Origin: Patescibacteria group bacterium
Lineage (GTDB): Bacteria > Patescibacteriota > Patescibacteriia > Patescibacteriales > UBA12465
Assembly: GCA_028687275.1 (NCBI GenBank)
Contig: JAQUAK010000001.1
Coordinates: forward strand, 420,213 to 484,212
Direction of reading: 5' to 3'
Length of the DNA stretch: 64,000 nucleotides
The notes beneath the pieces are model-generated. The model worked only from the letters and a program-made list of their open reading frames with translations, had not been told where the DNA came from and searched no databases. The translations under genes were made by a program, and so were the position numbers. Shown here piece by piece: positions 1 to 14,766 of the stretch; positions within the stretch are counted from its first letter, which is position 1; every line of letters begins with the position of its first letter.

Positions 1-540
1 TTACAAATATTTGGTGAAATTCAAGCTGATTATGGACAAATGCTAACCAAGATTAATAAAAAGGTTAATTATTTCTCCTTAAACATGCATGAAATTAAAG
101 ATAACGATATCTCTAATTTTATTAATTTTGAGATTACTTTAAACGAATTTCTAAGTGCTCTGATTCCGATTAGACACACCTTAAACAATACTTCACACGG
201 TAAGATTTTAAGCTTTTCTGATGATGACACAGAGATGCTAGAAGATTTACGTCTACAAAATGAACAGTTAATTGAGCGCTGTAAAAGTAATCTAACTAAC
301 TCTACTAACTTGAGACAAGCTTACGAGGTTATTTCCACTAGCCGTTTAAATCGCACCATGAAATTATTAACCGGAATGACGGTAATATTAGCTTTACCAA
401 CCATGGTTACTAGTTTCTATGGGATGAATGTTGCATTACCATTTGCTCAATCGCCTTTTGTTTTTTGGGGCATAGTGTTATTTATTTTTGCCTTAGTTGG
501 CGTACTATTTGTCGCTTTCCGTGGACGTAAACTATTATAA
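1..540 (+). CDS. corA: CorA-family Mg2+/Co2+ transporter, C-terminal part (5' end outside window)
   Basis: The frame is open from base 1 (LQIFGEIQADYGQ precedes the tracked Met at 40). It has the YGMN signature (FYGMNVALPF), then a terminal TM helix and a basic tail. Confidence 0.8.
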   Translation, partial: LQIFGEIQADYGQMLTKINKKVNYFSLNMHEIKDNDISNFINFEITLNEFLSALIPIRHTLNNTSHGKILSFSDDDTEMLEDLRLQNEQLIERCKSNLTNSTNLRQAYEVISTSRLNRTMKLLTGMTVILALPTMVTSFYGMNVALPFAQSPFVFWGIVLFIFALVGVLFVAFRGRKLL

Positions 541-563
541 TTTATTTATATATATTATTAACA

Positions 564-588
564 AAGCCTCTAATTTTGAGGCTTTTTT
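564..588 (+). terminator. Intrinsic terminator after corA fragment
   Basis: Stem aagcctc / gaggctt (564-570 / 578-584) with a 7-nt loop, followed by a T-run to 588. Confidence 0.75.
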
Positions 589-638
589 GAATTAAAGTAG
601 ATATACTCATATTTTAGCTAGATTTTATCTAATTTTTA

Positions 639-647
639 TGTTACAAT
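639..647 (+). promoter_or_regulatory. Extended -10 promoter element upstream of uvrB
   Basis: The sequence is TGtTACAAT (TG at 639-640, TACAAT at 642-647). The -35 is weak. It sits about 100 nt upstream of the uvrB ATG. Confidence 0.4.
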
Positions 648-751
648 CAGTCAACGCGGAGTAAGTACTTGTCTGTTTTTTGATGAATATTTAAGCCAAT
701 ATTAAGATAATAACCATTTAAAACTAAAGTTGATTTTTATAAATTATAAGG

Positions 752-2689
752 ATGGCAAATATATTTAAACTAAAATCTGATTTTGAACCAGCGGGTGATC
801 AACCTGAGGCGATAAAAAAACTTCTTCAAGGATTAGAGGCAGGTTTTGATTATCAAACACTTTTAGGTGTAACTGGGTCAGGAAAAACTTTTACCGCTGC
901 TAAAATTATTGAAGCTAATAATAAGCCAGCCTTGGTAATTGCGCCAAACAAAGCTTTAGCTGCCCAACTCTATCGTGAGTATAAAAATTTTTTTCCAGAA
1001 AATGCTGTTCATTTTTTTGTGTCTTATTATGATTATTACCAGCCAGAGGCTTATTTACCAATTACTGATACTTACATTGATAAAGAAGCTATGATTAATG
1101 ATGAAATGGATAGATTGCGTCATGGCGCCACTTCCGCCTTATTAAGTCGCCGTGATGTTATTATTGTAGCCTCAGTTTCTTGTATATATAATTTAGGCGT
1201 ACCTATAAATTATCTAGGTGCTTCTTTGCATTTAAATACTGAACAAACTATCACTCGGCAAGATTTAATTAGACAATTAGTCTCTATGCAGTTTGAAAGA
1301 GTGAATGGGGAAGTGCAAAGAGGACAATTTAGGGTAAGAGGCGATGTCTTTGAAATCAGGCCAATGTCTGAAAATGTTGTCTATCGTCTTAGTCTAGAAA
1401 ATCAGAATGTTAAATATTTGAGTGTTATTGATAATACCACTAAAAACATTCTTGAAAATTTACAAGAAATTGTCATCTTCCCACCTAAACATTTTATTTC
1501 TACTAAGCCACAAATTGAACAGGCAATCAAAAATATTGAAGAAGAGTTACAAGATCGACTCGCCTATTTTAAGAAAAATGAATTATATCTAGAAGCAGAA
1601 AGATTAGAGCGCCGCACTCGCTATGACATGGAGATGTTGCACACTCTTGGCTACTGTCATGGGATTGAAAATTACTCCCGACACTTGTCCGGAAAACTAG
1701 CGGGAGAGGCTCCAGATCCGCTTCTAAGCTATTTTCCACTTAAAGATGGCAAACCGGACTTCTTAACAATTATTGATGAATCTCACATCGCCATACCTCA
1801 AATTAGAGGCATGTATAATGGTGATCGTTCTCGTAAAGACACTCTAGTTAAGTTTGGCTGGCGCCTGCCTAGTGCGCTTGATAATCGACCCCTTAAATTT
1901 AACGAATTTCAAGCTAGAGTCGGCCAAGTTGTTTGTACCACAGCCACTCCTGGCGACTACGAAAAAGAACATTCTAAACAGATTGTTGAACAAATTATTC
2001 GTCCAACTGGTTTAGTTGACCCAGAAATTGAAATCAGGCCAGTCTACAATCAGAAAACTGATTATAGCCAGATTAATGATATTGTAAATGAGTCTGAGAG
2101 ATTAGCCGCTAAGGGCGAAAGAATTATTATTAACACTTTAACTAAAAAACAAGCAGAAGACTTAAGTGTTTATTTGAATAAAAAAAACATCAAGGCCAAC
2201 TATCTTCATTCGGATATCAAAACCTTTGAGCGCACAGATATCTTAAAATCTTTCCGTGAAGGGGTTTTTGATGTTTTAATTGGCGTTAATTTATTACGTG
2301 AAGGCCTTGATTTACCCGAAGTAACTCTAGTGGCCATTTTAGATGCTGATCGTGAAGGTTTTTTGCGTAGCGAAACCTCACTCATGCAAACCATGGGGCG
2401 CGCCGCTCGTAATGTGTCTGGCAAAATTATACTCTATGCTGATAAAGAAACAAATTCGATGAAACGAGCCATTGCTGAATCAACTAGAAGAAGAAAAATA
2501 CAATTAGTGTATAATAAGAAGCACGGAATTGAGCCAAAAACAGTCATCAAGAAGATTGAAAGCATGTTGGGTTTAGAAAATGAAAGGGAAGAAAATGAAC
2601 ATTTTAAAGATACGAAACATAAGAAACAAAAATATGAAAACAAACCAGACAAGGCCCCTCGTCGGAGTCGGGGTAATGGTAAAAAATAG
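752..2689 (+). CDS. uvrB: Excinuclease ABC subunit B (UvrB), without a recognisable C-terminal UVR domain
   Basis: Walker A GVTGSGKTFT, DESH box (IIDESHIAIPQ) and helicase C-terminal motifs (LLREGLDLPEV, QTMGRAARN). The last ~45 aa are a basic low-complexity tail. Confidence 0.97.
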   Translation: MANIFKLKSDFEPAGDQPEAIKKLLQGLEAGFDYQTLLGVTGSGKTFTAAKIIEANNKPALVIAPNKALAAQLYREYKNFFPENAVHFFVSYYDYYQPEAYLPITDTYIDKEAMINDEMDRLRHGATSALLSRRDVIIVASVSCIYNLGVPINYLGASLHLNTEQTITRQDLIRQLVSMQFERVNGEVQRGQFRVRGDVFEIRPMSENVVYRLSLENQNVKYLSVIDNTTKNILENLQEIVIFPPKHFISTKPQIEQAIKNIEEELQDRLAYFKKNELYLEAERLERRTRYDMEMLHTLGYCHGIENYSRHLSGKLAGEAPDPLLSYFPLKDGKPDFLTIIDESHIAIPQIRGMYNGDRSRKDTLVKFGWRLPSALDNRPLKFNEFQARVGQVVCTTATPGDYEKEHSKQIVEQIIRPTGLVDPEIEIRPVYNQKTDYSQINDIVNESERLAAKGERIIINTLTKKQAEDLSVYLNKKNIKANYLHSDIKTFERTDILKSFREGVFDVLIGVNLLREGLDLPEVTLVAILDADREGFLRSETSLMQTMGRAARNVSGKIILYADKETNSMKRAIAESTRRRKIQLVYNKKHGIEPKTVIKKIESMLGLENEREENEHFKDTKHKKQKYENKPDKAPRRSRGNGKK

Positions 2690-3068
2690 TCAGCAGCAAA
2701 TCCTAATAGGACTGCGCAAATCCCTGTACGGAAAAGGCACCTGGAGTTTTCCTGGAGGGCATTTAGAATTTGGTGAAACAATGACAGAGGCGGCTATTCG
2801 TGAAACTGAGGAAGAAACTGGCTTGGTCGTGAGTAATTTGGAGTTAGTTTCTTTAGCTGATGAAATGGGAAGTTTAGATAAAGGTAAACATTACGTTAAT
2901 GTTGGCTTCTTAGCCCACAGTAGTAGCGGCGAGCCACAAATTGCGGAACCAGAAAAATGGGAAAAATGGGATTGGTTTGATATTCATAATCTACCATCAC
3001 CATTATTTGAGGCTACAGACTTAATGATACAAAATTATTTAAATAAGAATATTTACCTAAACAGATAA
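2634..3068 (+). CDS. NUDIX hydrolase
   Basis: Nudix box GGHLEFGETMTEAAIRETEEETGL. The ORF opens at 2580; I prefer the ATG at 2634 (MKTNQTRPLVGVGVMV). Either start overlaps the uvrB 3' end. Confidence 0.8.
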   Translation: MKTNQTRPLVGVGVMVKNSQQQILIGLRKSLYGKGTWSFPGGHLEFGETMTEAAIRETEEETGLVVSNLELVSLADEMGSLDKGKHYVNVGFLAHSSSGEPQIAEPEKWEKWDWFDIHNLPSPLFEATDLMIQNYLNKNIYLNR

Positions 3069-3087
3069 ACAAAAGAAATAATAAATT

Positions 3088-5622
3088 ATGCAGGATAAAA
3101 TAATAATTCGCGGAGCGCGCATGCACAACTTAAAAAATATTAACCTAGAAATACCTCACAATAGTCTGAGTGTGATTACTGGCGTTTCTGGCTCTGGTAA
3201 ATCGTCACTAGCTTTTGACACTATTTTTGCTGAGGGTCAACGTCAATATGTGGAATCATTGTCGCCTTATATGCGCCAATTTTTAGGTCAAAAAAAACCA
3301 GCTGATGTTGATGAGATTTTAGGTTTGGCGCCAGCTATTTCTATTGACCAAAAAGCTCTATCTCATAATCCTCGCTCTACCGTTGGTACTTTAACGGAAA
3401 TTCATGACTATTTAAGAGTCTTGTATGCTCGCTTAGGTGAAGTTTTTTGTCCTCACTGTGGTACTAAAATTGAAAAGCTTAGCTTAGAGGAAATGATTGA
3501 TATTATTAAGACTCGCGGCGAAGAAGCTAAAGCTGAATATGCTGTTATTTTGAGTCCGGTTATCCGTGGTCGCAAAGGTGAATATTATCAACTACTCTAT
3601 GATTATCTAGCGCTTGGTTATGCTGAGGCGCGAGTCGATAGCAAAATGCATAATCTGCGCGACACCTTAAAAATTAATGCTAAAATAAAACATAATATTG
3701 ATATTGTAATTGATAAGGTGATGTTAAATGATGAAACTCGTCTATTTGAAGCAGTAGAAAATGCTACTCAATATAGTCAGGGATTAGTAGTGGTACAAAT
3801 GGGCAAAGAAGAATATCTATTATCCTCGAATTGGACCTGCCCTAATGATGGCTTTTCTTTCCCAGAAGTTGAGCCCCGCCTCTTTTCTTTTAATTCTCCT
3901 CACGGCGCCTGTCCGGAGTGTTCTGGCTTGGGCACAATTGGTTTTAGGACTGATAAAACATGTCCCGTTTGCGAAGGTAAGCGCCTTCGTCCAGAAGCTC
4001 TATCGGTTAAAATTATGGGCAAAAACTTAGCCGAAGCGAGTAATCTAAGTATTGATAAAGCCCACGATTATTTTTGGAAATTTTATCAGAAAATGAATAA
4101 GCGTCAGTTAGCAATTGCTGAAAATGTAATCTCTCAAGTATTAAATCGTTTAGACTTCCTTAATCAGGTCGGCTTGCACTATTTATCTTTAGATCGCGCA
4201 GCTGGCAGCTTATCTGGCGGTGAAGCCCAGCGCATTCGTTTGTCTTCTCAAATTGGTTCACAGCTATCACGTACCCTCTATGTTTTAGATGAACCCACTA
4301 TTGGTCTACACGAGCGCGACACCGAACGTTTAATAAACACCCTTAAAACTTTACGTGATAAAAATAATACCGTAGTTATCGTAGAACACGACGAACGTAC
4401 AATTTTAGCCTCAGATTATTTAATTGATCTTGGCCCTTTTGCGGGTGTTCACGGTGGTGAAATTAAAGCGATGGGTGAAACTTCTAAGTTGTTAGCCGCT
4501 GAAAATAAGAAACCTGGCAGCCAGTCTATGACTTTACAATATTTAGCTGGTCATCAAGAAATATCTTTACCAGAAAAAAGACGTCATCAAAATCATGGCA
4601 GTCTCAAAATTATTGGCGCTAAAATAAATAATCTTAAAAATGTTAAACTTGAGATTCCTTTAGGTAAATTGGTAGGCATTAGCGGCGTTTCTGGCTCCGG
4701 TAAATCATCTTTAATGTATAATGCTCTGTATAAAAATTTATCTTATTTAAAAAATAATCCTGGTAAAAAGGGTAAATTTAAAGGTATTGATGATATTAAG
4801 GGAGCGGAATATATAAATAAGATAGTGGTTATTGATCAATCGCCCATAGGACGTACCCCGCGTTCAAATCCAGCTACTTACACCGGTATATTTACGCCTA
4901 TTCGTGATTTTTTTGCTGAATTACCAGAATCAAAAGAGCGTGGCTATACTATTTCCCGTTTTTCTTTTAATCGTCCTGGGGGGCGTTGCGAGGCCTGTTC
5001 TGGGGCCGGCGCCAACCTGATTGAGATGCACTTTTTGCCAGCCGTTTTAGTTGAATGTGATGTTTGTCGAGGTAGACGTTTTAATCGAGAAACCTTACAA
5101 GTTAAGTATAAGGGTAAAAATATTGCTGATGTTTTAGATATGACTATTGATGAGGCAGTAGAGCTATTTACCGGTAACTACTACATCACCGATAAATTAA
5201 CTGTTTTACAATCGGTTGGTCTTGGCTATCTAAAACTCGGACAAGCCGCCACTACTTTATCTGGTGGTGAGGCCCAGCGGGTTAAGATAGGCAAAGAATT
5301 AACGCACACGCTTGGTAAGCGAACTCTATATCTATTAGATGAGCCAACTACAGGTTTACACTATTATGACATCGCCATGTTATTAAATGTTTTAAATAAG
5401 TTAGTAGAGAAGGGAAATTCAGTTTTAGTAATTGAGCACAATCTGCATATGCTTAAGTCTATGGACTATATTATTGATCTTGGTCCAGATGGTGGTGATA
5501 AGGGCGGAAAAATTGTAGCCGTGGGGACGCCCGAAGAAGTAGCTAGTAATGAAAATAGCTTAACTGGACAGTACTTAAAAGAGCATTTAAGTATAAAGAA
5601 AACAGCAATAAAGGTTAAATAA
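3088..5622 (+). CDS. uvrA: Excinuclease ABC subunit A (UvrA), short form lacking the insertion domain
   Basis: Two Walker A motifs (GVSGSGKSSL twice), two ABC signatures (LSGGEAQRI / LSGGEAQRV) and Zn-knuckles CPHC, CPEC, CPVC, CEAC, CDVC. It is 844 aa. Confidence 0.97.
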   Translation: MQDKIIIRGARMHNLKNINLEIPHNSLSVITGVSGSGKSSLAFDTIFAEGQRQYVESLSPYMRQFLGQKKPADVDEILGLAPAISIDQKALSHNPRSTVGTLTEIHDYLRVLYARLGEVFCPHCGTKIEKLSLEEMIDIIKTRGEEAKAEYAVILSPVIRGRKGEYYQLLYDYLALGYAEARVDSKMHNLRDTLKINAKIKHNIDIVIDKVMLNDETRLFEAVENATQYSQGLVVVQMGKEEYLLSSNWTCPNDGFSFPEVEPRLFSFNSPHGACPECSGLGTIGFRTDKTCPVCEGKRLRPEALSVKIMGKNLAEASNLSIDKAHDYFWKFYQKMNKRQLAIAENVISQVLNRLDFLNQVGLHYLSLDRAAGSLSGGEAQRIRLSSQIGSQLSRTLYVLDEPTIGLHERDTERLINTLKTLRDKNNTVVIVEHDERTILASDYLIDLGPFAGVHGGEIKAMGETSKLLAAENKKPGSQSMTLQYLAGHQEISLPEKRRHQNHGSLKIIGAKINNLKNVKLEIPLGKLVGISGVSGSGKSSLMYNALYKNLSYLKNNPGKKGKFKGIDDIKGAEYINKIVVIDQSPIGRTPRSNPATYTGIFTPIRDFFAELPESKERGYTISRFSFNRPGGRCEACSGAGANLIEMHFLPAVLVECDVCRGRRFNRETLQVKYKGKNIADVLDMTIDEAVELFTGNYYITDKLTVLQSVGLGYLKLGQAATTLSGGEAQRVKIGKELTHTLGKRTLYLLDEPTTGLHYYDIAMLLNVLNKLVEKGNSVLVIEHNLHMLKSMDYIIDLGPDGGDKGGKIVAVGTPEEVASNENSLTGQYLKEHLSIKKTAIKVK

Positions 5623-5623
5623 T

Positions 5624-5678
5624 AAAAAAACCGAGACAGCACATTTACACATTTTATTGTGTAAGACTGTCTCGGTTT
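5624..5678. terminator. Long bidirectional hairpin terminator after uvrA
   Basis: Stem ccgagacag (5631-5639) / ctgtctcgg (5667-5675) with inner pairing ttacac / gtgtaa. An A7 run precedes it on the plus strand (T7 on the minus strand); only TTT follows on the plus strand. Confidence 0.8.
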
Positions 5679-5960
5679 ATACTCCTTTTAGTTTGTTTAA
5701 ATTTTGCCTTCCAGCGAGCAGGAGCACCATCTCCTTATTCTATCCTTTGGGAAGGAAAATATAATTATACTTTAGAAGTAAACATGTGCCTAATTTAATA
5801 GGACTTTCAAAGAACGATGAGATGAAACGATAAGTTGGTAGAATACAAGTTCTAACGAAGTCTTTTTCCTAAAATTACCTCACGGAAATAATGATTCGGA
5901 TTGGTAATCCCCAGATGACTGAGCGCCAAAGAGCTTATACGCTAACAATATTTAATGATG
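5626..5960 (-). ncRNA. Candidate structured non-coding RNA of unknown family (strand uncertain, minus favoured)
   Basis: The 365-nt gap has no ORF longer than 30 aa. A minus-strand promoter-like element (TTGACA 5994-5989, 17-nt spacer, TAAGAT 5971-5966) lies upstream. Nested hairpins are present (CCTTCC..AGGAG-atggtg-CTCCT..GGAAGG). The hairpin plus T7 gives a minus-strand terminator. Confidence 0.25.
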
Positions 5961-5987
5961 CAGTTATCTTAAACCTAGATTAAAAAG

Positions 5988-7193
5988 ATGTCAATAGAAA
6001 ATAAAAATGACTTAAAAATGATTGCTACTGCAGCCCCTAAACAACCGGGTGTTTATTTTTGGTATGGGAAAAATAAAGAAGTTTTATATGTGGGTCGGGC
6101 TGTTAATCTACAAAATCGTTTAAAGCAATACTTTCAGAAAAATATTGATACCCGTATAGCCGAAATGGTGGGACAAGCCTTTGATATAAAATATACGGTC
6201 TGCAATAGTTTATTAGAAGCAATTATTTTAGAGGCGAAAAATATCAAAAAATACTGGCCTAAATATAATATCGTTGATCGTGATGATCGCTCTTTTATTT
6301 ATATTGCCATTAATCAAAAAGCGGAATTCCCAAAACCAATTATTATCCGTGGACAAGATATAAAAAAATTTCCTTCACAATCATACCAACTCTTTGGTCC
6401 ATATCAGTCATATCATTTAATTAACTCGGCTTTACGACTAATCCGTCAAGTTTTTCCCTACAGCCTCTGCCAAGCTCACCAGGATAAGGCATGTTTTGAT
6501 TATCAAATTGGTTTATGCCCCGGTATTTGTATTAACGCGATAACGGTTCAAGCATATAAAAAGAATATTAAAAATATTATTCTACTACTTAATGGTGACC
6601 ATAAAAGATTACTTAGCAAGCTGGAAAAGGAAAATCCAGAGCAGGCTAAGTCATTACAACACCTCCAAGATGTTTCTTTATTAAATATAGAAGAGGATTT
6701 GCGTCAGCCACGTTTAAAAAGAATCGAGGGTTATGACATTTCCCATCTACAAGGCAAGGAGACCTATGCCTCAATGGTAGTCTTTAATAATGGCGAAAAA
6801 CAAAGCGTTGATTATCGTCTATTTAAGATTAAAGAGGCGCCAGCCGGAGACGACGAAAGAGCTCTCTTAGAAGCCTTACTACGACGCTTTAAACACGAAG
6901 ATTGGCCTAGGCCAGAAATGATTATGATCGATGGTGGTAGTCCGCAAATTAGCTTCTTAAATAGAGAGCTAAGCAAGCATAATTTAATTTTGCCCCTGGT
7001 TGGTATTTCTAAGTTTGGTGGCGATAAATTAGTTTTTCCCAAAGGGGTAAAGCAGAATTTTAAAGACTTAGCGACAATATTAAAACCAGTTTTATTAAAA
7101 GTTAGAGAAGAGGCTCATCGCTTTGCCAATTATGGCAGGAAAAGAGGGTCCAAAAAATTAGGCAAAATTAATAAAAAAAGTCTTGACAATTGA
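5988..7193 (+). CDS. uvrC: Excinuclease ABC subunit C (UvrC), minimal 401-aa form
   Basis: GIY-YIG module (PGVYFWYGKNKEVLYVGRAVNLQNRLKQYF), Cys cluster CFDYQIGLCPGIC and C-terminal endonuclease module (IEGYDISHLQG, IMIDGGSPQ, REEAHRFA). I see no UVR helix pair or (HhH)2. Confidence 0.9.
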   Translation: MSIENKNDLKMIATAAPKQPGVYFWYGKNKEVLYVGRAVNLQNRLKQYFQKNIDTRIAEMVGQAFDIKYTVCNSLLEAIILEAKNIKKYWPKYNIVDRDDRSFIYIAINQKAEFPKPIIIRGQDIKKFPSQSYQLFGPYQSYHLINSALRLIRQVFPYSLCQAHQDKACFDYQIGLCPGICINAITVQAYKKNIKNIILLLNGDHKRLLSKLEKENPEQAKSLQHLQDVSLLNIEEDLRQPRLKRIEGYDISHLQGKETYASMVVFNNGEKQSVDYRLFKIKEAPAGDDERALLEALLRRFKHEDWPRPEMIMIDGGSPQISFLNRELSKHNLILPLVGISKFGGDKLVFPKGVKQNFKDLATILKPVLLKVREEAHRFANYGRKRGSKKLGKINKKSLDN

Positions 7194-7210
7194 CCAATAT
7201 CTGATAATAT
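7183..7210 (+). promoter_or_regulatory. Sigma70-type promoter for rplJ-rplL
   Basis: TTGACA at 7183-7188, a 16-nt spacer and TAATAT at 7205-7210. It overlaps the uvrC 3' end. Confidence 0.6.
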
Positions 7211-7214
7211 ATAA

Positions 7215-7383
7215 GCACAACTAAATAAATTGCCACAGACAGCAAGCATGTCGATAAGTCTTGCCGAGGTAAATTTGCTAAATATTAGCTCATTTTCAAT
7301 CTGTGGTCGGCCCACAGTTTTTTGTTTGTTGAGGGTCAAATCAATGTACTTATAAACCAGCGTATTAACGCTAATAAAAAAAT
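7215..7383 (+). promoter_or_regulatory. Ribosomal protein L10 (rplJ) leader-like 5' UTR
   Basis: A ~170-nt untranslated leader sits between the promoter and rplJ. It contains stems (gcaag/cttgc) and an internal terminator hairpin. Its position matches known L10 leaders; the family was not verified. Confidence 0.45.
7301..7324 (+). terminator. Attenuator hairpin inside the rplJ leader
   Basis: Stem ctgtgg (7301-7306) / ccacag (7312-7317) followed by T7. An upstream copy of ccacag at 7233-7238 could pair with 7301-7306 as an antiterminator. Confidence 0.55.
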
Positions 7384-7908
7384 ATGCCAAAAAGCAAACT
7401 CCAGAAGCAGGAAATTCTAAGAAGCTTGGAGAAGAAAATTGAGAAAGCAAAATCAGTTATCTTCGCCGGTTTCAATGCTTTGGGGGTAAAAGACAATGAA
7501 CTTTTACGTGATCAGTTACGCCAAGAAAACGGCGAATACTTTGTTACCAAGAAGACTTTATTGAACTTAGCCTTCAAAAATCAAGGTATGGATGGCTTAG
7601 ACACAAAAGGCTTGGACGGTAAAGTCGCTGCGATATTCTCATATGAGGATGAAGTAGCGGCGGCTAGAGTGCTCGACAACTTTCGCAAGGATAAAGGACA
7701 AAAACTTTATTTCCTTGGCGGAATTTTAGAAGGTAAGTTGCTTTCTAAAGAAGAAATCGAAGCAGTAGCTAAATTACCAAGCAAGCAAGAATTGTACGCC
7801 AAAGTCGTGGGCTCACTTAATGCCCCTATCTCCGGTTTTGTTAACGCTTTAGCCGGAAATATCCGTAATCTTGTCTACGTGTTAAAAGCGATTGAAGAGA
7901 AAAAATAA
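7384..7908 (+). CDS. rplJ: 50S ribosomal protein L10
   Basis: L10-like sequence (SVIFAGFNALGVKDNELLRDQLR, YFVTKKTLLNLAF). It lies directly upstream of rplL. Confidence 0.95.
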   Translation: MPKSKLQKQEILRSLEKKIEKAKSVIFAGFNALGVKDNELLRDQLRQENGEYFVTKKTLLNLAFKNQGMDGLDTKGLDGKVAAIFSYEDEVAAARVLDNFRKDKGQKLYFLGGILEGKLLSKEEIEAVAKLPSKQELYAKVVGSLNAPISGFVNALAGNIRNLVYVLKAIEEKK

Positions 7909-7939
7909 TAAATAATAACCACTAGATCAGATTAATATC

Positions 7940-8374
7940 ATGGTCAGTGAAAATAAAATTATGTCAGAAGAAACAACAAAAGACGCTGCTGAAGTAGTAG
8001 TGCCAGCTAAGTTCCAAAGCTTAGTAAGTGAAATTGAAAAAATGAGTGTTTTAGATTTAGCTGAGTTAGTTAAAATCTTAGAAGAAAAATTCGGTGTATC
8101 TGCTGCCGCCCCTTCAATGATGATGGCTCCAGCTGCTGGTGCTGCTGCCGTAGCTGAAGAAAAGGATGCCTTTGATGTTGAATTAACTGAAGCTGGTGCT
8201 AGCAAAATCAACGTTATTAAAGTAGTACGTGAAGTTACCGAAATGGGCTTGAAGGAAGCTAAAGATTTAGTGGACGCAGCTCCAAAGGTTTTAAAGGAAG
8301 GTTTAAAGAAGGATGAGGCTGAAGCTTTAAAGAAAAAATTAGAAGAAGCTGGAGCTAAAGTAACTTTGAAATAA
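7940..8374 (+). CDS. rplL: 50S ribosomal protein L7/L12
   Basis: N-terminal dimerisation helix ([16 protein letters not shown]), Ala-rich hinge and C-terminal domain ([24 protein letters not shown]). An alternative start at 7961 is possible. Confidence 0.95.
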
Positions 8375-8422
8375 AATTACTTTAATTCCTTACTACCTCT
8401 AAATAAGTAATGAATAAAAAAA

Positions 8423-8453
8423 TACCCTCGTAAATCTACGGGGGTATTTTTTT
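8423..8453. terminator. Bidirectional terminator between convergent rplL and the 761-aa gene
   Basis: Stem taccctcg / cgggggta (one G-U pair) with an 8-nt loop. An A-run lies upstream and a T7 run downstream. Confidence 0.8.
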
Positions 8454-8477
8454 ATACAAAAATATTTTATCAACTAA

Positions 8478-10763
8478 CTATAATTTAAATTGATAAATAG
8501 CGTCATCATTTAAAATATAAGCTGTTTTGCCATCGGCGCTAAAACTAAAATCTTTAATATTATTCAAGCCTGGTAATTGATATTGGTGAATCAAGCTACC
8601 ATCCAAATTAAAGATAACTAAACGTTTACTTGATTTATCTAAAATAACTATTTTTGAGTCTAGTAATTTAAATAGGGAAGCGCTATTTAGAGCAGGGTCA
8701 AGCGCCTGCAAGGAAAAATCCTGAGCGGCGCCACGTTTGTATTTATCTATCTTGCCGCCATCACGTAAAACATAGATATCACTACTAACAGCAATATCAA
8801 GTGCGCCACTTAAAGAAATTCCTTCCTGCATCCAAGCAGTTTTAGCACCATAAGCAGATCCCTGAGTAGTTAATTTATATATTTGGTTAGCGTCAGGCAT
8901 TAAAAGATATAGGGGTTTACCGCTAATATCATAGAATTGAAAAGATTCAATATTATCATCGGCGCCAACACCATTTAAAACAATGCTAGCATCTTTACCG
9001 CCTTGAGGGTCAACACTAATTAATTTATTATTATCTAAATAATAGATAGTACTATCAAAAACTACTGGCTTATTTAAAGCGTCAATTTGTTCGTTTAAAA
9101 GAATTGAATCTTTTTCCTTATTATTTAAATCTAACGAATAGATTGCCTTACCAGCGGGGTCGGCAACATAAGCAAGATTATCAAAAATAACTAAATTTCT
9201 TGTTTCCGCAGCTGGATTATAGTCCTTAAAATTGGCAATTAATTCAGGATTATCAATCTTAGTTAATTTCTGCACTTGATCGCGTTGTTTTTCAATTGAA
9301 GACAAGAGTGAATCACGTAAGTTAATTTGAGCCTCGCCCTCCACCTTTAGTTCGTTTAAGGCCATAATACTTTCACCAATTAAAACTTTAGCACCGTCTT
9401 CGTTGTTATATAATAAGTATGAATCAATCATAGACTTCTTTTCTTCTAAGGTAGAGATTGATTCATTAAAAAAAGCCAGGGCTGCTTGTTTGCGATTATT
9501 AGCATTAGTAATAATAATACTTGAAACTAAAATAACTGAAACTAAGAATAAAGAAATAAAAAGTAGGCGATGGCGAGAATTAAGATTTTTTATCCAAGAC
9601 AAAGTTTGTTTATAAAAATTTTTCCAAAATCTTGGATTGAATAAATTAAACAAGGTGGCCCCAATAGCACTTAAAGCCGATCTTAATTTTGAGTGGCCAC
9701 GACTAAAACTAATTTTTTCTTTAATCATCTTGGCCGCCGAGAGGGTTGTTTGGCGACTTAAAGATGGTAATGACTTATTTGATGTTAAAGATTTTAATTG
9801 AATACTAGGCCGTACACCACTATTTACCTTTTTCCAAATTTTACTAAATTTTTTCCAATTAAAGAGCCCGGTTGGCGCCAACATTTGCTCAGTACGCTTT
9901 TCCGTAGAATTTAAGTGTGAAATTGAATTATGAGCAGATCGGTAATGATCATCATCAACATCTTCCCTAATTTCGCGATCGCTGGAGCCAATGGTATTTT
10001 TAATAATAATACCTAAGAAGGGAACATAAGAATTTAGCTTAGCTAAAGTTGATTTAATTTGCTCTGCTGCTACCATCGGAGGAAGCTTAGTCACAATATT
10101 AATTAAATCTTTATTAGATAAATATTCTGGTAAGGCTTCATTGCAAAAAATAAAATAAGCTGACGGTGGTATCTCGCCGCTAATGACTGATGAAAAAAAT
10201 TTAGGGCCAGTGGCGTTAGCGTCATCGAGCTTTTCATTACTATCAGTAGCGCTAGTTTCAACATTAATTAATTCAAAATCTTCCTGACGCTTAAAAATTA
10301 AAAATGATTTATTACGACCGAAGCTTGAAAATAAAAGTTTATCTTCAAAAATAACCCCTAAGATAAAGCTGGTGTCTTCAGGTTGTAAGCGAATGCGATC
10401 AGCGGCCAGAAAATCAAGTAAAGCCTTATTTAGTTTAGCTAGGGCAGCTTCAAAAATATTATCCAGACTTAAGCCTTCAATTTTATCCTGCAAAAATAAT
10501 TTCTCATCATTGTAATAAAAATCTTCTAAATTACTGATTATGAAGTCAATCACTTTTTTTGTATCGGCCTTTTTACCATCAATCTCCGCCAGGAAAAACA
10601 ATTTACCAGCGATATTTTCTTTTAAGGCGTCAGGCTGGCTGATAAAAACCTCGCGACTACCAGTTTGGTGTTTCCCGGCATTTAAAATTATTGAGGATAT
10701 TTTGTATTGCATATTATAATATTTTTGCGCAAAATGCGCCCATTTTATTTGACTATTAGCCAT
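8478..10763 (-). CDS. Hypothetical single-pass membrane protein: ~390-aa N-terminal domain, one TM, C-terminal beta-propeller-like repeat domain
   Basis: Long ORF with no signal peptide. It has one TM (LLFISLFLVSVILVSSIIITNA) and a C-terminal half with a recurring blade-like motif (IYSLD, IYYLD, IYKL, IYVLRDGG, VIFNLDG, AYILNDD). Confidence 0.8.
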   Translation of the reverse strand: MANSQIKWAHFAQKYYNMQYKISSIILNAGKHQTGSREVFISQPDALKENIAGKLFFLAEIDGKKADTKKVIDFIISNLEDFYYNDEKLFLQDKIEGLSLDNIFEAALAKLNKALLDFLAADRIRLQPEDTSFILGVIFEDKLLFSSFGRNKSFLIFKRQEDFELINVETSATDSNEKLDDANATGPKFFSSVISGEIPPSAYFIFCNEALPEYLSNKDLINIVTKLPPMVAAEQIKSTLAKLNSYVPFLGIIIKNTIGSSDREIREDVDDDHYRSAHNSISHLNSTEKRTEQMLAPTGLFNWKKFSKIWKKVNSGVRPSIQLKSLTSNKSLPSLSRQTTLSAAKMIKEKISFSRGHSKLRSALSAIGATLFNLFNPRFWKNFYKQTLSWIKNLNSRHRLLFISLFLVSVILVSSIIITNANNRKQAALAFFNESISTLEEKKSMIDSYLLYNNEDGAKVLIGESIMALNELKVEGEAQINLRDSLLSSIEKQRDQVQKLTKIDNPELIANFKDYNPAAETRNLVIFDNLAYVADPAGKAIYSLDLNNKEKDSILLNEQIDALNKPVVFDSTIYYLDNNKLISVDPQGGKDASIVLNGVGADDNIESFQFYDISGKPLYLLMPDANQIYKLTTQGSAYGAKTAWMQEGISLSGALDIAVSSDIYVLRDGGKIDKYKRGAAQDFSLQALDPALNSASLFKLLDSKIVILDKSSKRLVIFNLDGSLIHQYQLPGLNNIKDFSFSADGKTAYILNDDAIYQFKL

Positions 10764-11531: not shown

Positions 11532-13466
11532 ATGAAATATAAAGCAAATTTAATCTATGCTGGAATTTTAACACTAAGGCTGTTGTTAGCAGCTTTAGTT
11601 TTATTTTTATTAGCCTTAATCATCAGCTTTATTCTTAGTTGGCAAAGCTGGCGTTCTTTTGTGGCTAACGGGTTACAGGCTAAAGACCAACTAAGTCTTG
11701 CTTTAGTTGAACTACAAAATAAAAATTGGCCTGACGCCAAAATAAAATTAGAATCTGCAGAAATATTCTTACTTGAGAGTAGATCTGATTTACAGAAACT
11801 ACAAAATGAATGGCTTCCAGCTAAATTTAAAATTGGAAGTTCTCAGATTAATGATTTAAAAAATCTAAATGACACTGGCCTGATTTTGACTCGCAGTGCT
11901 TTGCAGGTAAGTGTACTGGCTCAAAATTTAAGCGCCTCCTCTTTTATCGCTACCAATAATTTTAATGATTTAGATTTAAGCCAAAAAGAAAATTTTCTCC
12001 AAGCTTTAATTGCTCTGGAGCCAGAATTAAACGGTTTAAAGGCTAATCTTGACCTAGCCGTCATTAACCTTGATAGAATTCACCCTTATGGTATCCTTTG
12101 GCCAATTAAGGGACAATTAAGTAAACTGCGCATACAAATCGACACTGGACACAAAGTAATTAGCGAATCTTTACCAATACTTAGACTATTGCCGGCTTTT
12201 AGCGGCTATCCCCAAACCACACATTATTTAATTATGCTGCAAAACAATGATGAACTTAGGCCAACCGGTGGTTTTTTAGGCTCCTATGTACGTCTTGATA
12301 TTGCTAATTTTGGAGAAATTAAACGCTTGGAGGCGGACGATATCTATCACTTAGATATGCCTGCTATTGGGAAAACTAATTTTGAAGCTCCGGCTGCTAT
12401 TAGTAAATATTTAAAAGTTGATAATTGGTATTTACGTGATGCCAACTGGTCACCAGACTGGCCCCAATCAGCTCGCCAAATACAAACAATGTTTCAAGCT
12501 GAGAGTGCTGCCGGCGGCTTATCAGAGCCTGAACTTGATGGCGTCTTAGCAATTACGCCCGACTTTGTTGCTAGCTTACTCAAGATTACCGGACCAATAA
12601 TTGTTAGAGGACAAAGTTATGCCCCTGAAAACATGCAAGCCCTTTTGCAATATAACGTTGAAGTCGCCTATAAAGATGATGATATTTCCTCATGGGACCG
12701 AAAAGATATTATTAATGAATTAATTAATGCCTTACGCGACAAGCTAACTCAATTGCCTCTAAAACGCTATCCTGACCTATTAAACAACCTATACACCAGT
12801 ATTAACCGAGGCGATTTATTAATCTATTTTAATAACCCTCAACAACAAATTTTAGCCAAAGAATTAGGAGCAAGCGGTGCCATAATTCAAGGCAGCGGTG
12901 ATTATTTAATGGTAGTAGATGCAAACTTAGCCGCCTTCAAAAGTGACGCCGTCATGAAAAAAAATATTAGCTACAAAATTGATTCTAGTAATAATCGTTT
13001 AATAGCCTCACTTCGCTTAAATTATCAGCACGGCGGGGGCTTTGACTGGCGCACAACTAGATATCGCAGTTACACCCGAATACTAGCGCCTCTAGGCAGT
13101 GAGCTTAAAGAAATAAGCAATATTAATCAAACTGAGGCTGATTTTATCAGTTATGATGATTTAGAATTAAATAAACATGTCTTTGGTTTCTTCTGGAGTA
13201 TTGAGCCCGGACAAAGCAAGGAAGTGAAATTATCATATTATCTACCAGCAAATATTAACAATTCATTTAATAGTGATAAGCTGTACACTCTTTTTGTACA
13301 ACGTCAGCCAGGCAGTCAAATTGAAAACTTTTCTTTAACTATTAACAGCAATAAAGAGATATTAAAGAGTAGCTCTCTAAATTTAAGTGCGGCTCAAAGT
13401 AAAGATGCAGTTTTTTGGACGAGCAGGCTAGAAAGCAGTCAGTACTTCCAAGTATTGACAAAATAG
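11532..13466 (+). CDS. DUF4012 domain-containing envelope protein
   Basis: N-terminal TM plus the motif NNDELRPTGGFLGSY, which I recognise as the DUF4012 hallmark. It lies in a glycan locus. Confidence 0.75.
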   Translation: MKYKANLIYAGILTLRLLLAALVLFLLALIISFILSWQSWRSFVANGLQAKDQLSLALVELQNKNWPDAKIKLESAEIFLLESRSDLQKLQNEWLPAKFKIGSSQINDLKNLNDTGLILTRSALQVSVLAQNLSASSFIATNNFNDLDLSQKENFLQALIALEPELNGLKANLDLAVINLDRIHPYGILWPIKGQLSKLRIQIDTGHKVISESLPILRLLPAFSGYPQTTHYLIMLQNNDELRPTGGFLGSYVRLDIANFGEIKRLEADDIYHLDMPAIGKTNFEAPAAISKYLKVDNWYLRDANWSPDWPQSARQIQTMFQAESAAGGLSEPELDGVLAITPDFVASLLKITGPIIVRGQSYAPENMQALLQYNVEVAYKDDDISSWDRKDIINELINALRDKLTQLPLKRYPDLLNNLYTSINRGDLLIYFNNPQQQILAKELGASGAIIQGSGDYLMVVDANLAAFKSDAVMKKNISYKIDSSNNRLIASLRLNYQHGGGFDWRTTRYRSYTRILAPLGSELKEISNINQTEADFISYDDLELNKHVFGFFWSIEPGQSKEVKLSYYLPANINNSFNSDKLYTLFVQRQPGSQIENFSLTINSNKEILKSSSLNLSAAQSKDAVFWTSRLESSQYFQVLTK

Positions 13467-13564
13467 ATAAAAATAAATTAATATAATAATGAGACTAACT
13501 TCAAGCCCGGGAAACTGGTGACTTAAGCGTCTTAATCTTCCATCCCTTTCAAAAGGGAATATAG

Positions 13565-13598
13565 CCTCTAGAGCTTCAAAGCTTTGGAGGTTTTTTTT
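13565..13598 (+). terminator. Intrinsic terminator after DUF4012 gene
   Basis: An 11-bp stem (cctctagagct / agctttggagg, two G-U pairs) with a 4-nt loop, followed by T8. Confidence 0.8.
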
Positions 13599-13625
13599 GA
13601 CAAAATATGATTAATATATTATAAT
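13597..13625 (+). promoter_or_regulatory. Consensus sigma70 promoter for 13678 gene
   Basis: TTGACA at 13597-13602, a 17-nt spacer and TATAAT at 13620-13625. Both hexamers are perfect. Confidence 0.7.
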
Positions 13626-13677
13626 CCAATATCAATATTCATTAACAATAGAATAAAAACCTCAAAACCCAGATAAA

Positions 13678-14697: not shown

Positions 14698-14704
14698 AAG
14701 CTTA

Positions 14705-14736
14705 AGGGTTCGACAAAGCATGTCGGACCTTTTTTT
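14705..14736 (+). terminator. Intrinsic terminator
   Basis: Stem ggttcgaca / tgtcggacc (one G-U pair) with a 5-nt loop, followed by T7. Confidence 0.8.
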
Positions 14737-14766
14737 ATTCTGTTTTATAAGCTATTATATATTTAT

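What the first reader, a model, noticed from the sequence alone, without database searches (positions are those of the whole stretch)
752..7193. Co-ordinated domain loss in UvrA, UvrB and UvrC (a minimal excinuclease)
In UvrA, the two halves of the second Zn module (C275-x2-C278 and C292-x2-C295, nt 3910-3975) are only 13 residues apart. In characterised UvrA proteins a ~100-residue insertion domain sits between them, and this UvrA is 844 aa rather than about 940. The second half of Zn module 1 has also decayed to a single Cys (TCPND, Cys251). UvrB ends in a ~45-aa basic low-complexity tail (ENEREENEHFKDTKHKKQKYENKPDKAPRRSRGNGKK) instead of the UVR helical hairpin. UvrC (401 aa) goes from the Cys cluster almost directly into the RNase-H-like endonuclease module. 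It lacks the UVR domain that normally pairs with UvrB, most of the linker region, and the C-terminal (HhH)2. Loss of both partners of the UvrB-UvrC UVR contact looks like co-evolution and implies a different handover mechanism.
Basis: partly seen in the sequence, partly recalled or inferred. Interest (0 to 1): 0.55.

Follow-up and report, generated by a model that had tools for sequence, protein, structure and literature searches.

The report
Stripped-down UvrABC repair enzyme, Patescibacteria
A lineage of tiny-genome bacteria keeps a working-looking UvrABC DNA-repair machine that has lost several accessory domains, including both halves of the UvrB–UvrC contact that E. coli needs for cutting, so it must hand damaged DNA to the nuclease in another way.

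Summary
UvrA (844 aa) lacks the ~115-aa insertion domain. UvrB (645 aa) has no UVR domain. UvrC (401 aa) lacks the UVR core, the whole central "linker" (the inactive RNase H1 domain) and the (HhH)2 tail. All catalytic, ATPase, Zn and Fe-S motifs are intact and under strong purifying selection.

The same gene trio, usually in uvrB-uvrA-uvrC order, recurs in about 60 Patescibacteria genomes (Falkow-, Komeili-, Buchananbacteria).

The "co-ordinated loss in all three" reading is only partly right, because the losses are nested:
- RNase H1- and HhH-less UvrC is the most widespread state.
- UvrA insertion-domain loss is narrower and forms one clade.
- The UVR loss sits inside that clade.

The UVR pair itself is tightly coupled. 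In 81 loci carrying both genes, 62 lack it in both and 19 keep it in both, with none discordant. A second, unrelated lineage (L115) lost both independently.

In UvrC the loss is a clean 15-residue deletion that leaves a short two-helix stub. The fourth Zn1 ligand is a conserved Asp, not decay.

I found no description of this in the searchable literature. I rate it a new variant of a known system.

The parts
752..2689 (+). uvrB, 645 aa. Helicase core, beta-hairpin (YYDYYQPEAY), UvrA-interaction domain and PF12344 are present. Domain 4 (UVR) is absent.
   Evidence: (NF003673 917.6 bits, cut-off 743). Invariant motifs across 46 relatives.
2585..2686 (+). UvrB residues 612-645: basic, low-complexity tail (13 K/R and 6 D/E in 34 residues) in place of the linker and UVR hairpin.
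   Evidence: composition; most relatives end at 611 aa; pLDDT<50; pN 0.22-0.46 in the tail against 0.045-0.12 in the core.
2580..3068 (+). NUDIX hydrolase ORF inserted between uvrB and uvrA. The probable start near 2634 overlaps the uvrB tail by about 55 nt. It is not part of the excinuclease.
   Evidence: PF00293, E=4.5e-22; a homologue lies between uvrB and uvrA in only 6 of 86 loci.
3088..5622 (+). uvrA, 844 aa. Two ABC ATPase modules, the UvrB-binding domain and Zn modules 1-3 are present. The insertion domain is absent.
   Evidence: (NF001503 1189.4 bits, cut-off 1147).
3838..3849 (+). Second half of Zn module 1: C251-P-N-D254, with Asp in place of the second Cys. The first half is C121/C124 at 3448-3459.
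   Evidence: C-P-x-D recurs in nearly all insertion-domain-less UvrAs.
3910..3972 (+). Zn module 2: C275-x2-C278 and C292-x2-C295, separated by 13 residues where the ~115-aa insertion domain normally sits.
   Evidence: By my regex count, the spacing is 12 in this clade, 29-34 in Buchananbacteria and 110-137 in insertion-domain-containing relatives. The regex undercounts by one.
4987..5067 (+). Zn module 3 (C634, C637, C657, C660), the damage-sensing zinc hairpin. It is intact.
5988..7193 (+). uvrC, 401 aa. Architecture: GIY-YIG, beta-sheet motif, Cys-rich/helical bundle, then the catalytic RNase H domain. It lacks the RNase H1 domain, the (HhH)2 tail and the UVR core.
6045..6269 (+). GIY-YIG 3'-incision nuclease domain (residues 20-94). 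Y34, G36, R44, E82 and N94 are invariant and Y23 is nearly invariant.
   Evidence: Foldseek against 1YD6: TM 0.90, rmsd 1.0.
6468..6530 (+). Cys-rich (Fe-S) motif: C161, C169, C177, C181, all invariant.
   Evidence: The consensus motif is described in PMC10085695.
6594..6674 (+). Vestige of the UVR (UvrB-binding) hairpin, residues ~203-229: GDHKRLLSKLEKE-NPE-QAKSLQHLQDV. A 15-residue deletion removed the turn and the FExAAxxRD core.
   Evidence: HMM positions 1-20 and 33-42 match, and the middle is missing; alignment with UVR-containing short UvrCs; helices 205-215 and 217-226.
6711..7127 (+). Catalytic RNase H-like 5'-incision domain (residues 242-380). D250 (DISH), D315 (IDGG) and H377 (AHRF) are conserved. 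Only ~22 residues follow EAHRF, so there is no room for (HhH)2.
563..585 (+). Terminator-like hairpin upstream of uvrB. With the hairpin at 7301-7317 it brackets uvrB-nudix-uvrA-uvrC as a possible transcription unit.
   Evidence: This is a consensus match only.
7301..7317 (+). Terminator-like hairpin downstream of uvrC.
   Evidence: This is a consensus match only.

Best explanation
This is a functional but radically streamlined UvrABC excinuclease of a Patescibacteria (Parcubacteria-group) lineage. It was produced by stepwise, nested domain loss, and it hands damaged DNA from UvrB to UvrC without the UVR-UVR coiled-coil contact.

Order of events inferred from the trees:
1. UvrC lost the inactive RNase H1 platform domain, and in most lineages the C-terminal (HhH)2.
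2. UvrA lost its insertion domain, and the fourth ligand of Zn1 changed from Cys to Asp.
3. UvrB lost domain 4 (UVR), and UvrC suffered a 15-residue deletion of the matching hairpin core.

Proposed mechanism (inferred, not shown):
- UvrA2 still finds distortions through signature domain II and the Zn3 hairpin, and still loads UvrB through its retained UvrB-binding domain. It probably discriminates damage less well, which a genome of roughly 0.6-1 Mb may tolerate.
- UvrB lacks its autoinhibitory domain 4 but still forms the pre-incision complex.
- The compact UvrC docks directly on the UvrB-DNA complex through other surfaces. E. coli Cho, which lacks a UvrB-binding domain, makes its 3' cut this way, and canonical UvrC makes its 5' cut this way.
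- In canonical UvrC, RNase H1 is proposed to occlude the GIY-YIG active site until UvrB binds the UVR bundle. Losing RNase H1 may have removed the need for that unlocking step, leaving the UVR pair free to be lost. That loss then happened at least twice.

The confidence of 0.6 is for the whole statement. I put about 0.95 on real, nested, lineage-wide domain loss, about 0.8 on the system being functional, about 0.6 on UVR-independent direct docking, and about 0.35 on RNase H1 loss being what made UVR dispensable.
For: Shown directly:
- The domain absences are established.
- Both proteins still score as UvrA and UvrB equivalogs above NCBI's cut-offs.
- Catalytic and ligand residues are invariant across 120 UvrC and 46 UvrB relatives.
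- Selection is strongly purifying: pN 0.05-0.20 against pS ~0.75-0.86 in comparisons with four relatives.
- The uvrB-uvrA-uvrC cluster, with all three short forms, recurs in about 60 independent genome assemblies.
- The AF2 model of UvrC is confident (pLDDT 89.7) and shows the expected modules plus a truncated two-helix stub.

Nesting of the losses:
- In the UvrA NJ tree, the insertion-domain-less sequences form one clade of 85 (40/40 bootstraps).
- Inside it, the genomes with UVR-less UvrB form one clade of 73 (40/40 bootstraps). Their sister group is 12 insertion-domain-less genomes that keep UVR.
- Short UvrCs that keep UVR are common: 78 of 80 metagenome loci and most of the 50%-identity cluster representatives.

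Coupling of the UVR pair:
- 62 loci lack it in both proteins, 19 have it in both, and none is discordant.
- L115 is an independent double loss.

From the literature:
- Engineered insertion-domain deletions of UvrA still support incision but discriminate damage less well (PMC3025350).
- D. radiodurans UvrC lacking (HhH)2 keeps full 3' incision and reduced 5' incision (PMC10085695).
- RNase H1 packs against and blocks the N-terminal nuclease active site, and UvrB binding to the helical bundle is proposed to release it.
- E. coli Cho has no UvrB-binding domain yet makes a 3' incision.
Against: - No biochemistry exists for any of these proteins. Function is inferred from conservation alone.
- In E. 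coli the UVR contact is required for 3' incision, so UVR-independent incision here is an extrapolation.
- The link between RNase H1 loss and dispensability of UVR rests on an AlphaFold-based model of D. radiodurans UvrC that its authors call speculative.
- Most RNase H1-less UvrCs still keep UVR, so RNase H1 loss alone does not make the contact useless.
- The coupling rests on only two independent evolutionary events.
- The partner UvrB of a third UVR-less UvrC group (a Yanofskybacteria sub-clade) could not be found.
- Trees are single-protein NJ trees, and the metagenome loci have no taxonomy.
- A second, full-length uvr set elsewhere in the 593-kb contig was not excluded.
Confidence: 0.6

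Rival explanations
1. The handshake has been relocated rather than lost. The conserved two-helix stub in UvrC (residues ~203-229), or another UvrC surface, binds a different site on the UvrB core. Alternatively a separate small adaptor protein bridges the two. Either way a specific UvrB-UvrC tether still exists.
For: - The stub is retained, conserved in pattern (LxKKLxKEN-P-x-AK) and confidently helical.
Against: - The residues that make the known interface, the equivalents of F652 and R659 in the turn, are exactly the ones deleted.
- No conserved extra ORF lies between or beside the three genes. The uvrA-uvrC gap varies from overlap to ~1.8 kb among relatives, and in the window it holds only small ORFs of 25-35 aa that were not examined further.
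Confidence: 0.2
2. The system is a decaying relic. Nucleotide excision repair is no longer functional in this reduced-genome lineage, and the domain losses are early steps of gene erosion.
For: Patescibacteria have undergone extensive gene loss (general knowledge). Several domains that are essential in E. coli are missing.
Against: - There are no frameshifts or internal stops.
- All catalytic, ATPase, Zn and Fe-S residues are invariant.
- pN is far below pS.
- The architecture and synteny persist across a clade whose UvrA identity falls to ~59%.
- The deletions have clean, conserved boundaries.
Confidence: 0.05
3. The proteins have been uncoupled and repurposed. UvrC acts as a stand-alone structure-specific nuclease, independent of UvrB, while UvrAB serves another role such as transcription-coupled or replication-associated damage handling.
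For: - The known UvrB-UvrC tether has been lost.
- NCBI names this UvrC only 'GIY-YIG nuclease family protein'.
- Insertion-domain-less UvrA is relatively better at Mfd-dependent repair than at global repair.
Against: - uvrB, uvrA and uvrC remain tightly linked and co-oriented in about 60 genomes.
- The two UVR partners were lost together, twice, which implies the proteins were still evolving as a pair.
- Both UvrC nuclease centres are retained.
Confidence: 0.1
4. A canonical full-length uvr set exists elsewhere in the genome, and the short genes seen here are accessory paralogues.
For: Only 64 kb of a 593-kb contig could be inspected. Paralogous UvrA classes and Cho exist in other bacteria.
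Against: - No second copy is in the window.
- The short UvrA and UvrB score above the NCBI equivalog cut-offs.
- Every one of the best 120 relatives of UvrB and of UvrC has the short form.
- No full-length form appeared in any of the 80 genome loci.
Confidence: 0.05

Closest known systems
Canonical class I UvrABC excinuclease (E. coli, Geobacillus, Thermotoga, Deinococcus)
   Same: - Same three proteins.
- UvrA has two ABC modules, the UvrB-binding domain and the Zn3 hairpin.
- UvrB has the SF2 helicase core, the beta-hairpin and domain 2.
- UvrC has GIY-YIG, the Cys-rich motif and a DDH RNase H nuclease.

   Different: It lacks the UvrA insertion domain, UvrB domain 4 (UVR), the UvrC UVR core, the UvrC RNase H1 domain and the UvrC (HhH)2. 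The fourth Zn1 ligand is Asp.
Engineered deletion mutants studied in vitro: UvrA d290-400 (insertion-domain deletion), UvrB* (domain-4 deletion), UvrC d(HhH)2
   Same: Each natural loss here matches a laboratory truncation whose phenotype is known. The UvrA deletion incises short substrates but discriminates damage poorly. Domain 4 of UvrB is autoinhibitory and is needed for UvrC-dependent 3' incision. UvrC without (HhH)2 keeps 3' incision and has weaker 5' incision.
   Different: All of the losses are combined in one natural, conserved system. RNase H1 is removed as well, for which no engineered counterpart was found.
Cho (UvrC homologue), class II, E. coli
   Same: It is a GIY-YIG plus Cys-rich nuclease that cuts at UvrB-DNA complexes without a UVR/UvrB-binding domain. 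This is the precedent for UVR-independent 3' incision.
   Different: Cho has no C-terminal catalytic RNase H domain and makes only the 3' cut. The protein here keeps the DDH nuclease, and its match to the Cho model is 63 bits against a cut-off of 367.
Class II UvrA (D. radiodurans UvrA2, DrrC, Ecm16)
   Same: These are naturally domain-deleted UvrA relatives of similar length (about 810-840 aa, 2vf7 and 7sh1).
   Different: Class II UvrAs lack the UvrB-binding domain and keep an insertion domain. This UvrA does the opposite: it keeps PF17760 and lacks the insertion domain.
Short UvrC of other Patescibacteria (for example P0250, P0267, L088, L094)
   Same: Same RNase H1-less, HhH-less architecture of 390-450 aa. 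In the sister clade it is paired with an insertion-domain-less UvrA.
   Different: These proteins keep an intact UVR hairpin, and their UvrB keeps domain 4.

Membership tests
UvrA (class I, NER) | Two ABC ATPase modules with Walker A and signature motifs; full-length match to the equivalog model | tested here: met
   NF001503 scores 1189.4 bits (cut-off 1147) and TIGR00630 scores 1128.9 (cut-off 729.8). GVSGSGKSS and LSGGEAQR each occur twice in the translation.
UvrA (class I, NER) | UvrB-binding domain | tested here: met
   PF17760, residues 133-238, E=2.2e-21.
UvrA (class I, NER) | Insertion domain between the halves of Zn module 2 | tested here: not met
   Only 13 residues lie between C278 and C292. 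The PDB alignment skips chain residues ~302-419. The Pfam scan lists no insertion-domain match.
UvrA (class I, NER) | Three zinc modules with four Cys each | tested here: inconclusive
   Zn2 and Zn3 have four Cys each. Zn1 has three Cys plus a conserved Asp254. Metal binding cannot be tested here.
UvrB | SF2 helicase core, beta-hairpin, UvrA-interaction domain 2; match to the equivalog model | tested here: met
   NF003673 scores 917.6 bits (cut-off 743). PF17757, PF00271 and PF12344 are found. K45 and the Y92-Y101 hairpin are invariant.
UvrB | C-terminal domain 4 (UVR helical hairpin) that binds UvrC | tested here: not met
   No PF02151 at E<=1. My own UVR HMM is negative. The AF2 tail has pLDDT<50. 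The same tests are positive in L075, L088 and L094.
UvrC | N-terminal GIY-YIG nuclease with catalytic Tyr, Arg, Glu and Asn | tested here: met
   PF01541, E=1e-9. Y34, R44, E82 and N94 are invariant. Foldseek against 1YD6 gives TM 0.90.
UvrC | Cys-rich (Fe-S) motif | tested here: met
   C161, C169, C177 and C181 are invariant. Cluster binding cannot be tested here.
UvrC | UVR / UvrB-binding helical hairpin | tested here: not met
   A 15-residue deletion removed the core. Only the HMM flanks match, at 4.9 and -0.7 bits. No PF02151.
UvrC | Central inactive RNase H1 domain (the former 'linker') | tested here: not met
   About 15 residues separate the stub from RIEGYD, against ~150 in 590-615-aa UvrCs. 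The domain is defined in PMC10085695.
UvrC | Catalytic RNase H-like 5' nuclease with a DDH triad | tested here: met
   PF08459, E=6.9e-31. D250, D315 and H377 are conserved. Foldseek hits 2NRT and 8B0Q.
UvrC | C-terminal (HhH)2 DNA-binding domain | tested here: not met
   Only 22 residues follow EAHRF, against ~68-76 in HhH-bearing relatives. There is no HhH family hit. The alignment to 2NRT stops before the HhH region.
UvrC | Score above the NCBIfam equivalog cut-off | tested here: not met
   TIGR00194 scores 282.4 bits against a cut-off of 285.45. NCBI accordingly names it 'GIY-YIG nuclease family protein'.
Cho (UvrC homologue) | GIY-YIG plus Cys-rich N-terminal half only, with no catalytic C-terminal nuclease | tested here: not met
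   The RNase H DDH domain is present. NF007833 scores 63.3 bits against a cut-off of 367.
Class II UvrA (UvrA2/DrrC/Ecm16) | Absence of the UvrB-binding domain | tested here: not met
   PF17760 is present.

The most novel reading that the evidence does not exclude
The UVR-UVR handshake, treated as an obligatory step of bacterial excision repair, is dispensable once UvrC has lost its autoinhibitory RNase H1 platform. On this reading these bacteria use a direct, Cho-like docking of a ~390-aa two-nuclease UvrC on the UvrB-DNA complex. The two halves of the interface are so interdependent that they are lost only together, and this happened convergently in at least two lineages. The clade would then provide the smallest natural dual-incision excinuclease and a tractable target for the still unsolved full-length UvrC and UvrB-UvrC-DNA structures.
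Probability: 0.4. Interest if true: 0.72.

Novelty: new variant of a known kind. Interest (0 to 1): 0.58.

Why it matters
1. Textbook models based on E. coli hold that UvrC is recruited, and its 3' cut licensed, through the UvrB domain 4-UvrC UVR contact. A large, conserved clade without either half implies a second recruitment route and shows which parts of the machine are truly core.

2. The lineage offers a natural deletion series: RNase H1 and HhH first, then the UvrA insertion domain, then the UVR pair. UVR-containing sister genomes serve as controls. The series mirrors laboratory truncations and can be tested by simple incision and complementation assays.

3. No full-length UvrC structure and no UvrB-UvrC-DNA complex structure had been described as of the 2021 review and the 2023 D. 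radiodurans paper read here. A compact 390-aa UvrC that AF2 predicts confidently could be a better target.

4. There is a practical annotation consequence. The UvrC falls 3 bits below NCBI's equivalog cut-off and is labelled 'GIY-YIG nuclease family protein'. Pathway surveys could therefore score excision repair as incomplete in these Patescibacteria.

Tried and rejected
- **Yanofskybacteria partner.** I looked for the UvrB partner of a third UVR-less UvrC group (Yanofskybacteria sub-clade: P0299, P0391-P0404) with the look-up of encoding contigs on P0394 and P0400. uvrC is not near uvrB or uvrA in those genomes, so pairing stays unknown.
- **Possible second UvrA.** I suspected the other 844-aa ORF at 39809-42343(-). 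It is a VirD4/TrwB-type coupling-protein homologue. tblastn of the three proteins against the window finds only themselves.
- **Adaptor gene or RNA.** I searched the uvrA-uvrC gap and flanks. Only small ORFs of 25-35 aa lie in the window's gap, and the gap length itself varies among relatives. There were no Rfam hits in 1-9000.
- **UvrB tail as a read-through into nudix.** The nudix gene lies between uvrB and uvrA in only 6 of 86 loci, while the tail also occurs where nudix is absent from that position. I rejected this as a general explanation.
- **Tree rooting.** Midpoint rooting of the UvrA tree split the insertion-domain-less group artificially. Rooting on an insertion-domain-containing sequence and checking the bipartition resolved it.
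- **L098.** My regex for Zn2 spacing mis-hit in L098 (UvrA 1032 aa). I treated it as insertion-domain-containing from its length and did not examine it further.
- **Literature.** Searches for UvrC or UvrB with Patescibacteria or Candidate Phyla Radiation found nothing relevant. The Cho paper (Moolenaar 2002) is not held. The statement that Cho acts without UvrB's C-terminal domain rests on my own knowledge plus the description in PMC10085695.
- **Foldseek.** The search with the UvrC model returned only the expected UvrC domain structures and EndoV.

Full report
**What is in the window**

Bases 752-7193 hold four co-oriented ORFs:
- uvrB, 752-2689, 645 aa
- a NUDIX hydrolase, 2580-3068
- uvrA, 3088-5622, 844 aa
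- uvrC, 5988-7193, 401 aa

They are followed by rplJ and rplL. Terminator-like hairpins at 563-585 and 7301-7317 bracket the uvr genes (consensus matches only). The sequence is 33-39% G+C. The UvrC protein is identical to one from a 'Patescibacteria group bacterium' MAG on a 593-kb contig.

**Check of the observation**

UvrA:
- It has C121/C124, C251, C275/C278, C292/C295 and C634/C637/C657/C660. The Zn2 halves occupy nt 3910-3972 and are 13 residues apart.
- Against solved UvrA structures, the alignment breaks at query residues 283-287 while the Geobacillus chain jumps from 302 to 419. About 115 residues, the insertion domain, are therefore absent.
- Pfam finds the UvrB-binding domain but lists no insertion-domain match.

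UvrB:
- It has the helicase core, the UvrA-interaction domain and PF12344, but no PF02151 UVR even at E<=1.
- An AF2 model gives pLDDT below 50 for 601-620 and 622-645, with one low-confidence helix and no hairpin.

UvrC:
- Only GIY-YIG (20-94) and the catalytic RNase H domain (242-380) are found.
- Only 22 residues follow the EAHRF motif, so there is no room for (HhH)2.

UvrA and UvrB still score above NCBI's equivalog cut-offs. UvrC misses its cut-off by 3 bits (282.4 against 285.45). That explains why NCBI calls it a 'GIY-YIG nuclease family protein'.

**Three refinements**

1. The second half of Zn1 is C-P-N-D, and the Asp aligns to the missing Cys. This C-P-x-D pattern recurs in almost all of the roughly 85 insertion-domain-less UvrAs I tabulated. 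Insertion-domain-containing relatives mostly have CxxC. A conserved Asp at a ligand position looks like a Cys3Asp site rather than decay. Metal binding was not testable.

2. UvrC is not simply missing the UVR domain. Aligned with short UvrCs that keep UVR, the window's clade has a clean 15-residue deletion. It removes the end of helix 1, the turn and the start of helix 2, that is the 'M..AA....FE.AA..R' core.
   - What remains is KRLLSKLEKE-NPE-QAKSLQHLQDV.
   - A UVR HMM I built matches only its positions 1-20 and 33-42 there.
   - A confident AF2 model (mean pLDDT 89.7) predicts two short helices, 205-215 and 217-226.
   - The residues known to form the UvrB-UvrC interface lie in the deleted turn (PMC10085695).

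3. The missing 'linker' matches the inactive RNase H1 domain defined in D. radiodurans UvrC (residues 243-366). [quoted passage not shown] UvrCs of about 590-615 aa carry some 150 residues there that the short forms lack.

**Is it functional?**

- GIY-YIG residues (Y34, R44, E82, N94), the four Cys of the Fe-S motif, and D250 and H377 of the RNase H triad are invariant across 120 UvrC relatives. D315 is nearly invariant.
- UvrB's Walker A lysine, beta-hairpin tyrosines and helicase motifs are invariant across 46 relatives.
- Against four relatives, non-synonymous differences are 0.05-0.20 per site while synonymous sites are saturated at ~0.75-0.86.
- The basic UvrB tail is the exception. Its pN is 0.22-0.46 against 0.045-0.12 for the core, and most relatives end at ~611 aa without it. 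It is a weakly constrained add-on of a small sub-clade, not a replacement module.

**Distribution**

- All of the best 120 homologues of UvrC are 385-463 aa with GIY-YIG (all but one), UvrC_M and RNase H, and no UVR or HhH.
- All of the best 120 UvrB homologues lack UVR.
- A scan of one genome per species returned 80 loci. Where named informatively, they are Falkowbacteria, Komeilibacteria, Buchananbacteria or 'Patescibacteria/Parcubacteria group'.
- In about 60 of these loci the uvrB-uvrA-uvrC order is kept, with UvrB ~600-684 aa where complete, UvrA 830-915 aa and UvrC 382-445 aa.
- An exhaustive search of 50%-identity cluster representatives changed the picture. The nine closest UvrC clusters lack UVR. 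Most other short (400-460 aa) UvrCs have a strong UVR match.
- A metagenome scan seeded with those UVR-containing short UvrCs gave 80 more loci. Of these, 78 have UVR in UvrC, and many also carry uvrA and uvrB.

**The losses are nested, not simultaneous**

Zn2 spacing separates three groups of UvrA by my regex count, which undercounts by one: 12 residues (no insertion domain), 29-34 (a Buchananbacteria sub-clade) and 110-137 (insertion domain present).

- Short, RNase H1-less UvrCs occur together with insertion-domain-containing UvrA and UVR-containing UvrB, for example L123, L130 and L142. Some of them still carry an HhH-length tail (L118, L120).
- On a UvrA NJ tree rooted on an insertion-domain-containing sequence, the insertion-domain-less sequences form one clade of 85 (40/40 bootstraps).
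- Within it, the genomes whose UvrB lacks UVR form one clade of 73 (40/40 bootstraps).
- Their sister group is 12 insertion-domain-less genomes whose UvrB keeps UVR, and whose UvrC does too where it is present.
- The UvrC tree gives a single UVR-less clade of 78 with no UVR-containing member.

**The UVR pair is coupled**

- In loci that encode both UvrB (C-terminus present) and UvrC, 62 lack UVR in both, 19 have it in both, and none is discordant. Pfam's own UVR model agrees on ten spot checks.
- Locus L115 is a second, independent case.
  - Its UvrC (478 aa, 29% identical to the window's) has no UVR.
  - Its convergently oriented uvrB ends at '...GLTPRTIETGFHESLV', just after PF12344.
  - Its nearest UvrB neighbours all have UVR, and it falls outside the main UVR-less clade in 60 of 60 bootstraps.
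- A third UVR-less UvrC group exists in a Yanofskybacteria sub-clade. Its uvrB is not nearby, so pairing is unknown.
- Caveat: the 81 concordant loci represent only two evolutionary events.

**How it probably works**

Established background:
- The UVR contact is needed for the pre-incision complex to proceed to 3' incision, and UvrB domain 4 autoinhibits its ATPase (review PMC7835731).
- The contact is needed for 3' but not 5' incision (PMC10085695).
- UvrA lacking the insertion domain still supports incision of short substrates. It discriminates damage poorly amid excess undamaged DNA, and transcription-coupled repair is less affected (PMC3025350).
- D. radiodurans UvrC lacking (HhH)2 keeps full 3' incision and reduced 5' incision. 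In the model of that enzyme, RNase H1 packs against and blocks the GIY-YIG active site, and UvrB binding to the helical bundle is proposed to release it.
- E. coli Cho has no UvrB-binding domain yet makes a 3' cut.

Inference:
- In these bacteria UvrA still loads UvrB, because the UvrB-binding domain and Zn3 are intact.
- UvrB is constitutively un-inhibited.
- A compact UvrC docks directly on the UvrB-DNA complex.
- Loss of RNase H1 may have removed the autoinhibition that the UVR contact relieves. The interface would then be dispensable, and once one half degraded the other followed.
- This last step is the weakest. Most RNase H1-less UvrCs still keep UVR, and the autoinhibition model is itself a prediction.

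**Rivals**

- A relocated tether through the conserved stub, or through an adaptor, is plausible (0.2).
- Uncoupling and repurposing is less so, given the conserved synteny and the paired loss (0.1).
- Decay is contradicted by the conservation (0.05).
- A hidden full-length set is unlikely but could only be excluded for this window (0.05).

**Comparison and novelty**

The system is a member of the UvrABC kind, but it fails five domain-level defining features across the three proteins.
- It is not Cho, because the catalytic RNase H domain is present.
- It is not a class II UvrA, because the UvrB-binding domain is present.

Full-text searches combining UvrB or UvrC with Patescibacteria or Candidate Phyla Radiation found no description of this architecture. 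I rate it a new variant of a known kind and of moderate to good interest. It questions the universality of the UvrB-UvrC handshake and offers a natural deletion series with built-in controls. It also offers a small UvrC that may suit structural work.

Noticed in passing
window 2580-3068 (+): A NUDIX hydrolase gene sits between uvrB and uvrA. From its likely start (~2634) it overlaps the last ~55 nt of uvrB in another frame. A homologue lies between uvrB and uvrA in only 6 of 86 related loci, four of them with the same ~46-55 nt overlap, so it looks like a recent insertion.
   Followed up: partly
window 5988-7193 (+): This UvrC scores 282.4 bits against NCBIfam TIGR00194, whose cut-off is 285.45. 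NCBI therefore labels it and its relatives 'GIY-YIG nuclease family protein'. Automated pathway surveys could report uvrC as missing in this clade.
   Followed up: partly
window 39809-42343 (-): An 844-aa ORF, by coincidence the same length as UvrA, gives weak matches to type IV secretion coupling proteins (TrwB/VirD4; E~1e-7).
   Followed up: partly
window 8478-10763 (-), 50209-51933 (-), 62082-63557 (-): Three large ORFs (761, 574 and 491 aa) have no Pfam match at E<=1e-5.
   Followed up: no
window ~12000-30000: Cumulative GC skew peaks near 12 kb. Genes run mostly on the + strand to the left and on the - strand from ~30 kb onward, a convergent layout that could mark a replication terminus. 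No tRNA gene was found in the whole 64 kb.
   Followed up: no
L063-L067 (Buchananbacteria loci), UvrA Zn module 2: These UvrAs form a sub-clade with a 30-35-residue spacer between the Zn2 halves instead of 13. It is either a small secondary insertion or a larger remnant of the insertion domain.
   Followed up: partly
L115:58-1494 (+) and L115:3490-4374 (-): This independent UVR-less UvrB/UvrC pair has a UvrC with a different helical segment where UVR would be. It also has a proline/arginine-rich insertion inside the RNase H domain.
   Followed up: partly
P0299, P0391-P0404 (Yanofskybacteria sub-clade); loci L161-L165: This is a third group of short UvrCs (348-408 aa) without UVR. Their nearest relatives at ~50% identity have it. 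Here uvrC lies away from uvrA and uvrB, so the state of the partner UvrB is unknown.
   Followed up: partly
L094:7495-10008 (UvrA): This is the one insertion-domain-less UvrA seen that keeps CxxC (CPQC) in the second half of Zn1. The Cys-to-Asp change and the insertion-domain loss are therefore not strictly linked. L142 shows the converse, an insertion-domain-containing UvrA with CPID.
   Followed up: no
L005, L007-L012, L032, L076 and other record titles: Many MAG records that carry this Patescibacteria-type uvr cluster are titled 'uncultured Gammaproteobacteria', 'Bacillota', 'Planctomycetota', 'archaeon' or 'Saccharimonadales'. These are probably mislabelled bins or placeholder names.
   Followed up: no
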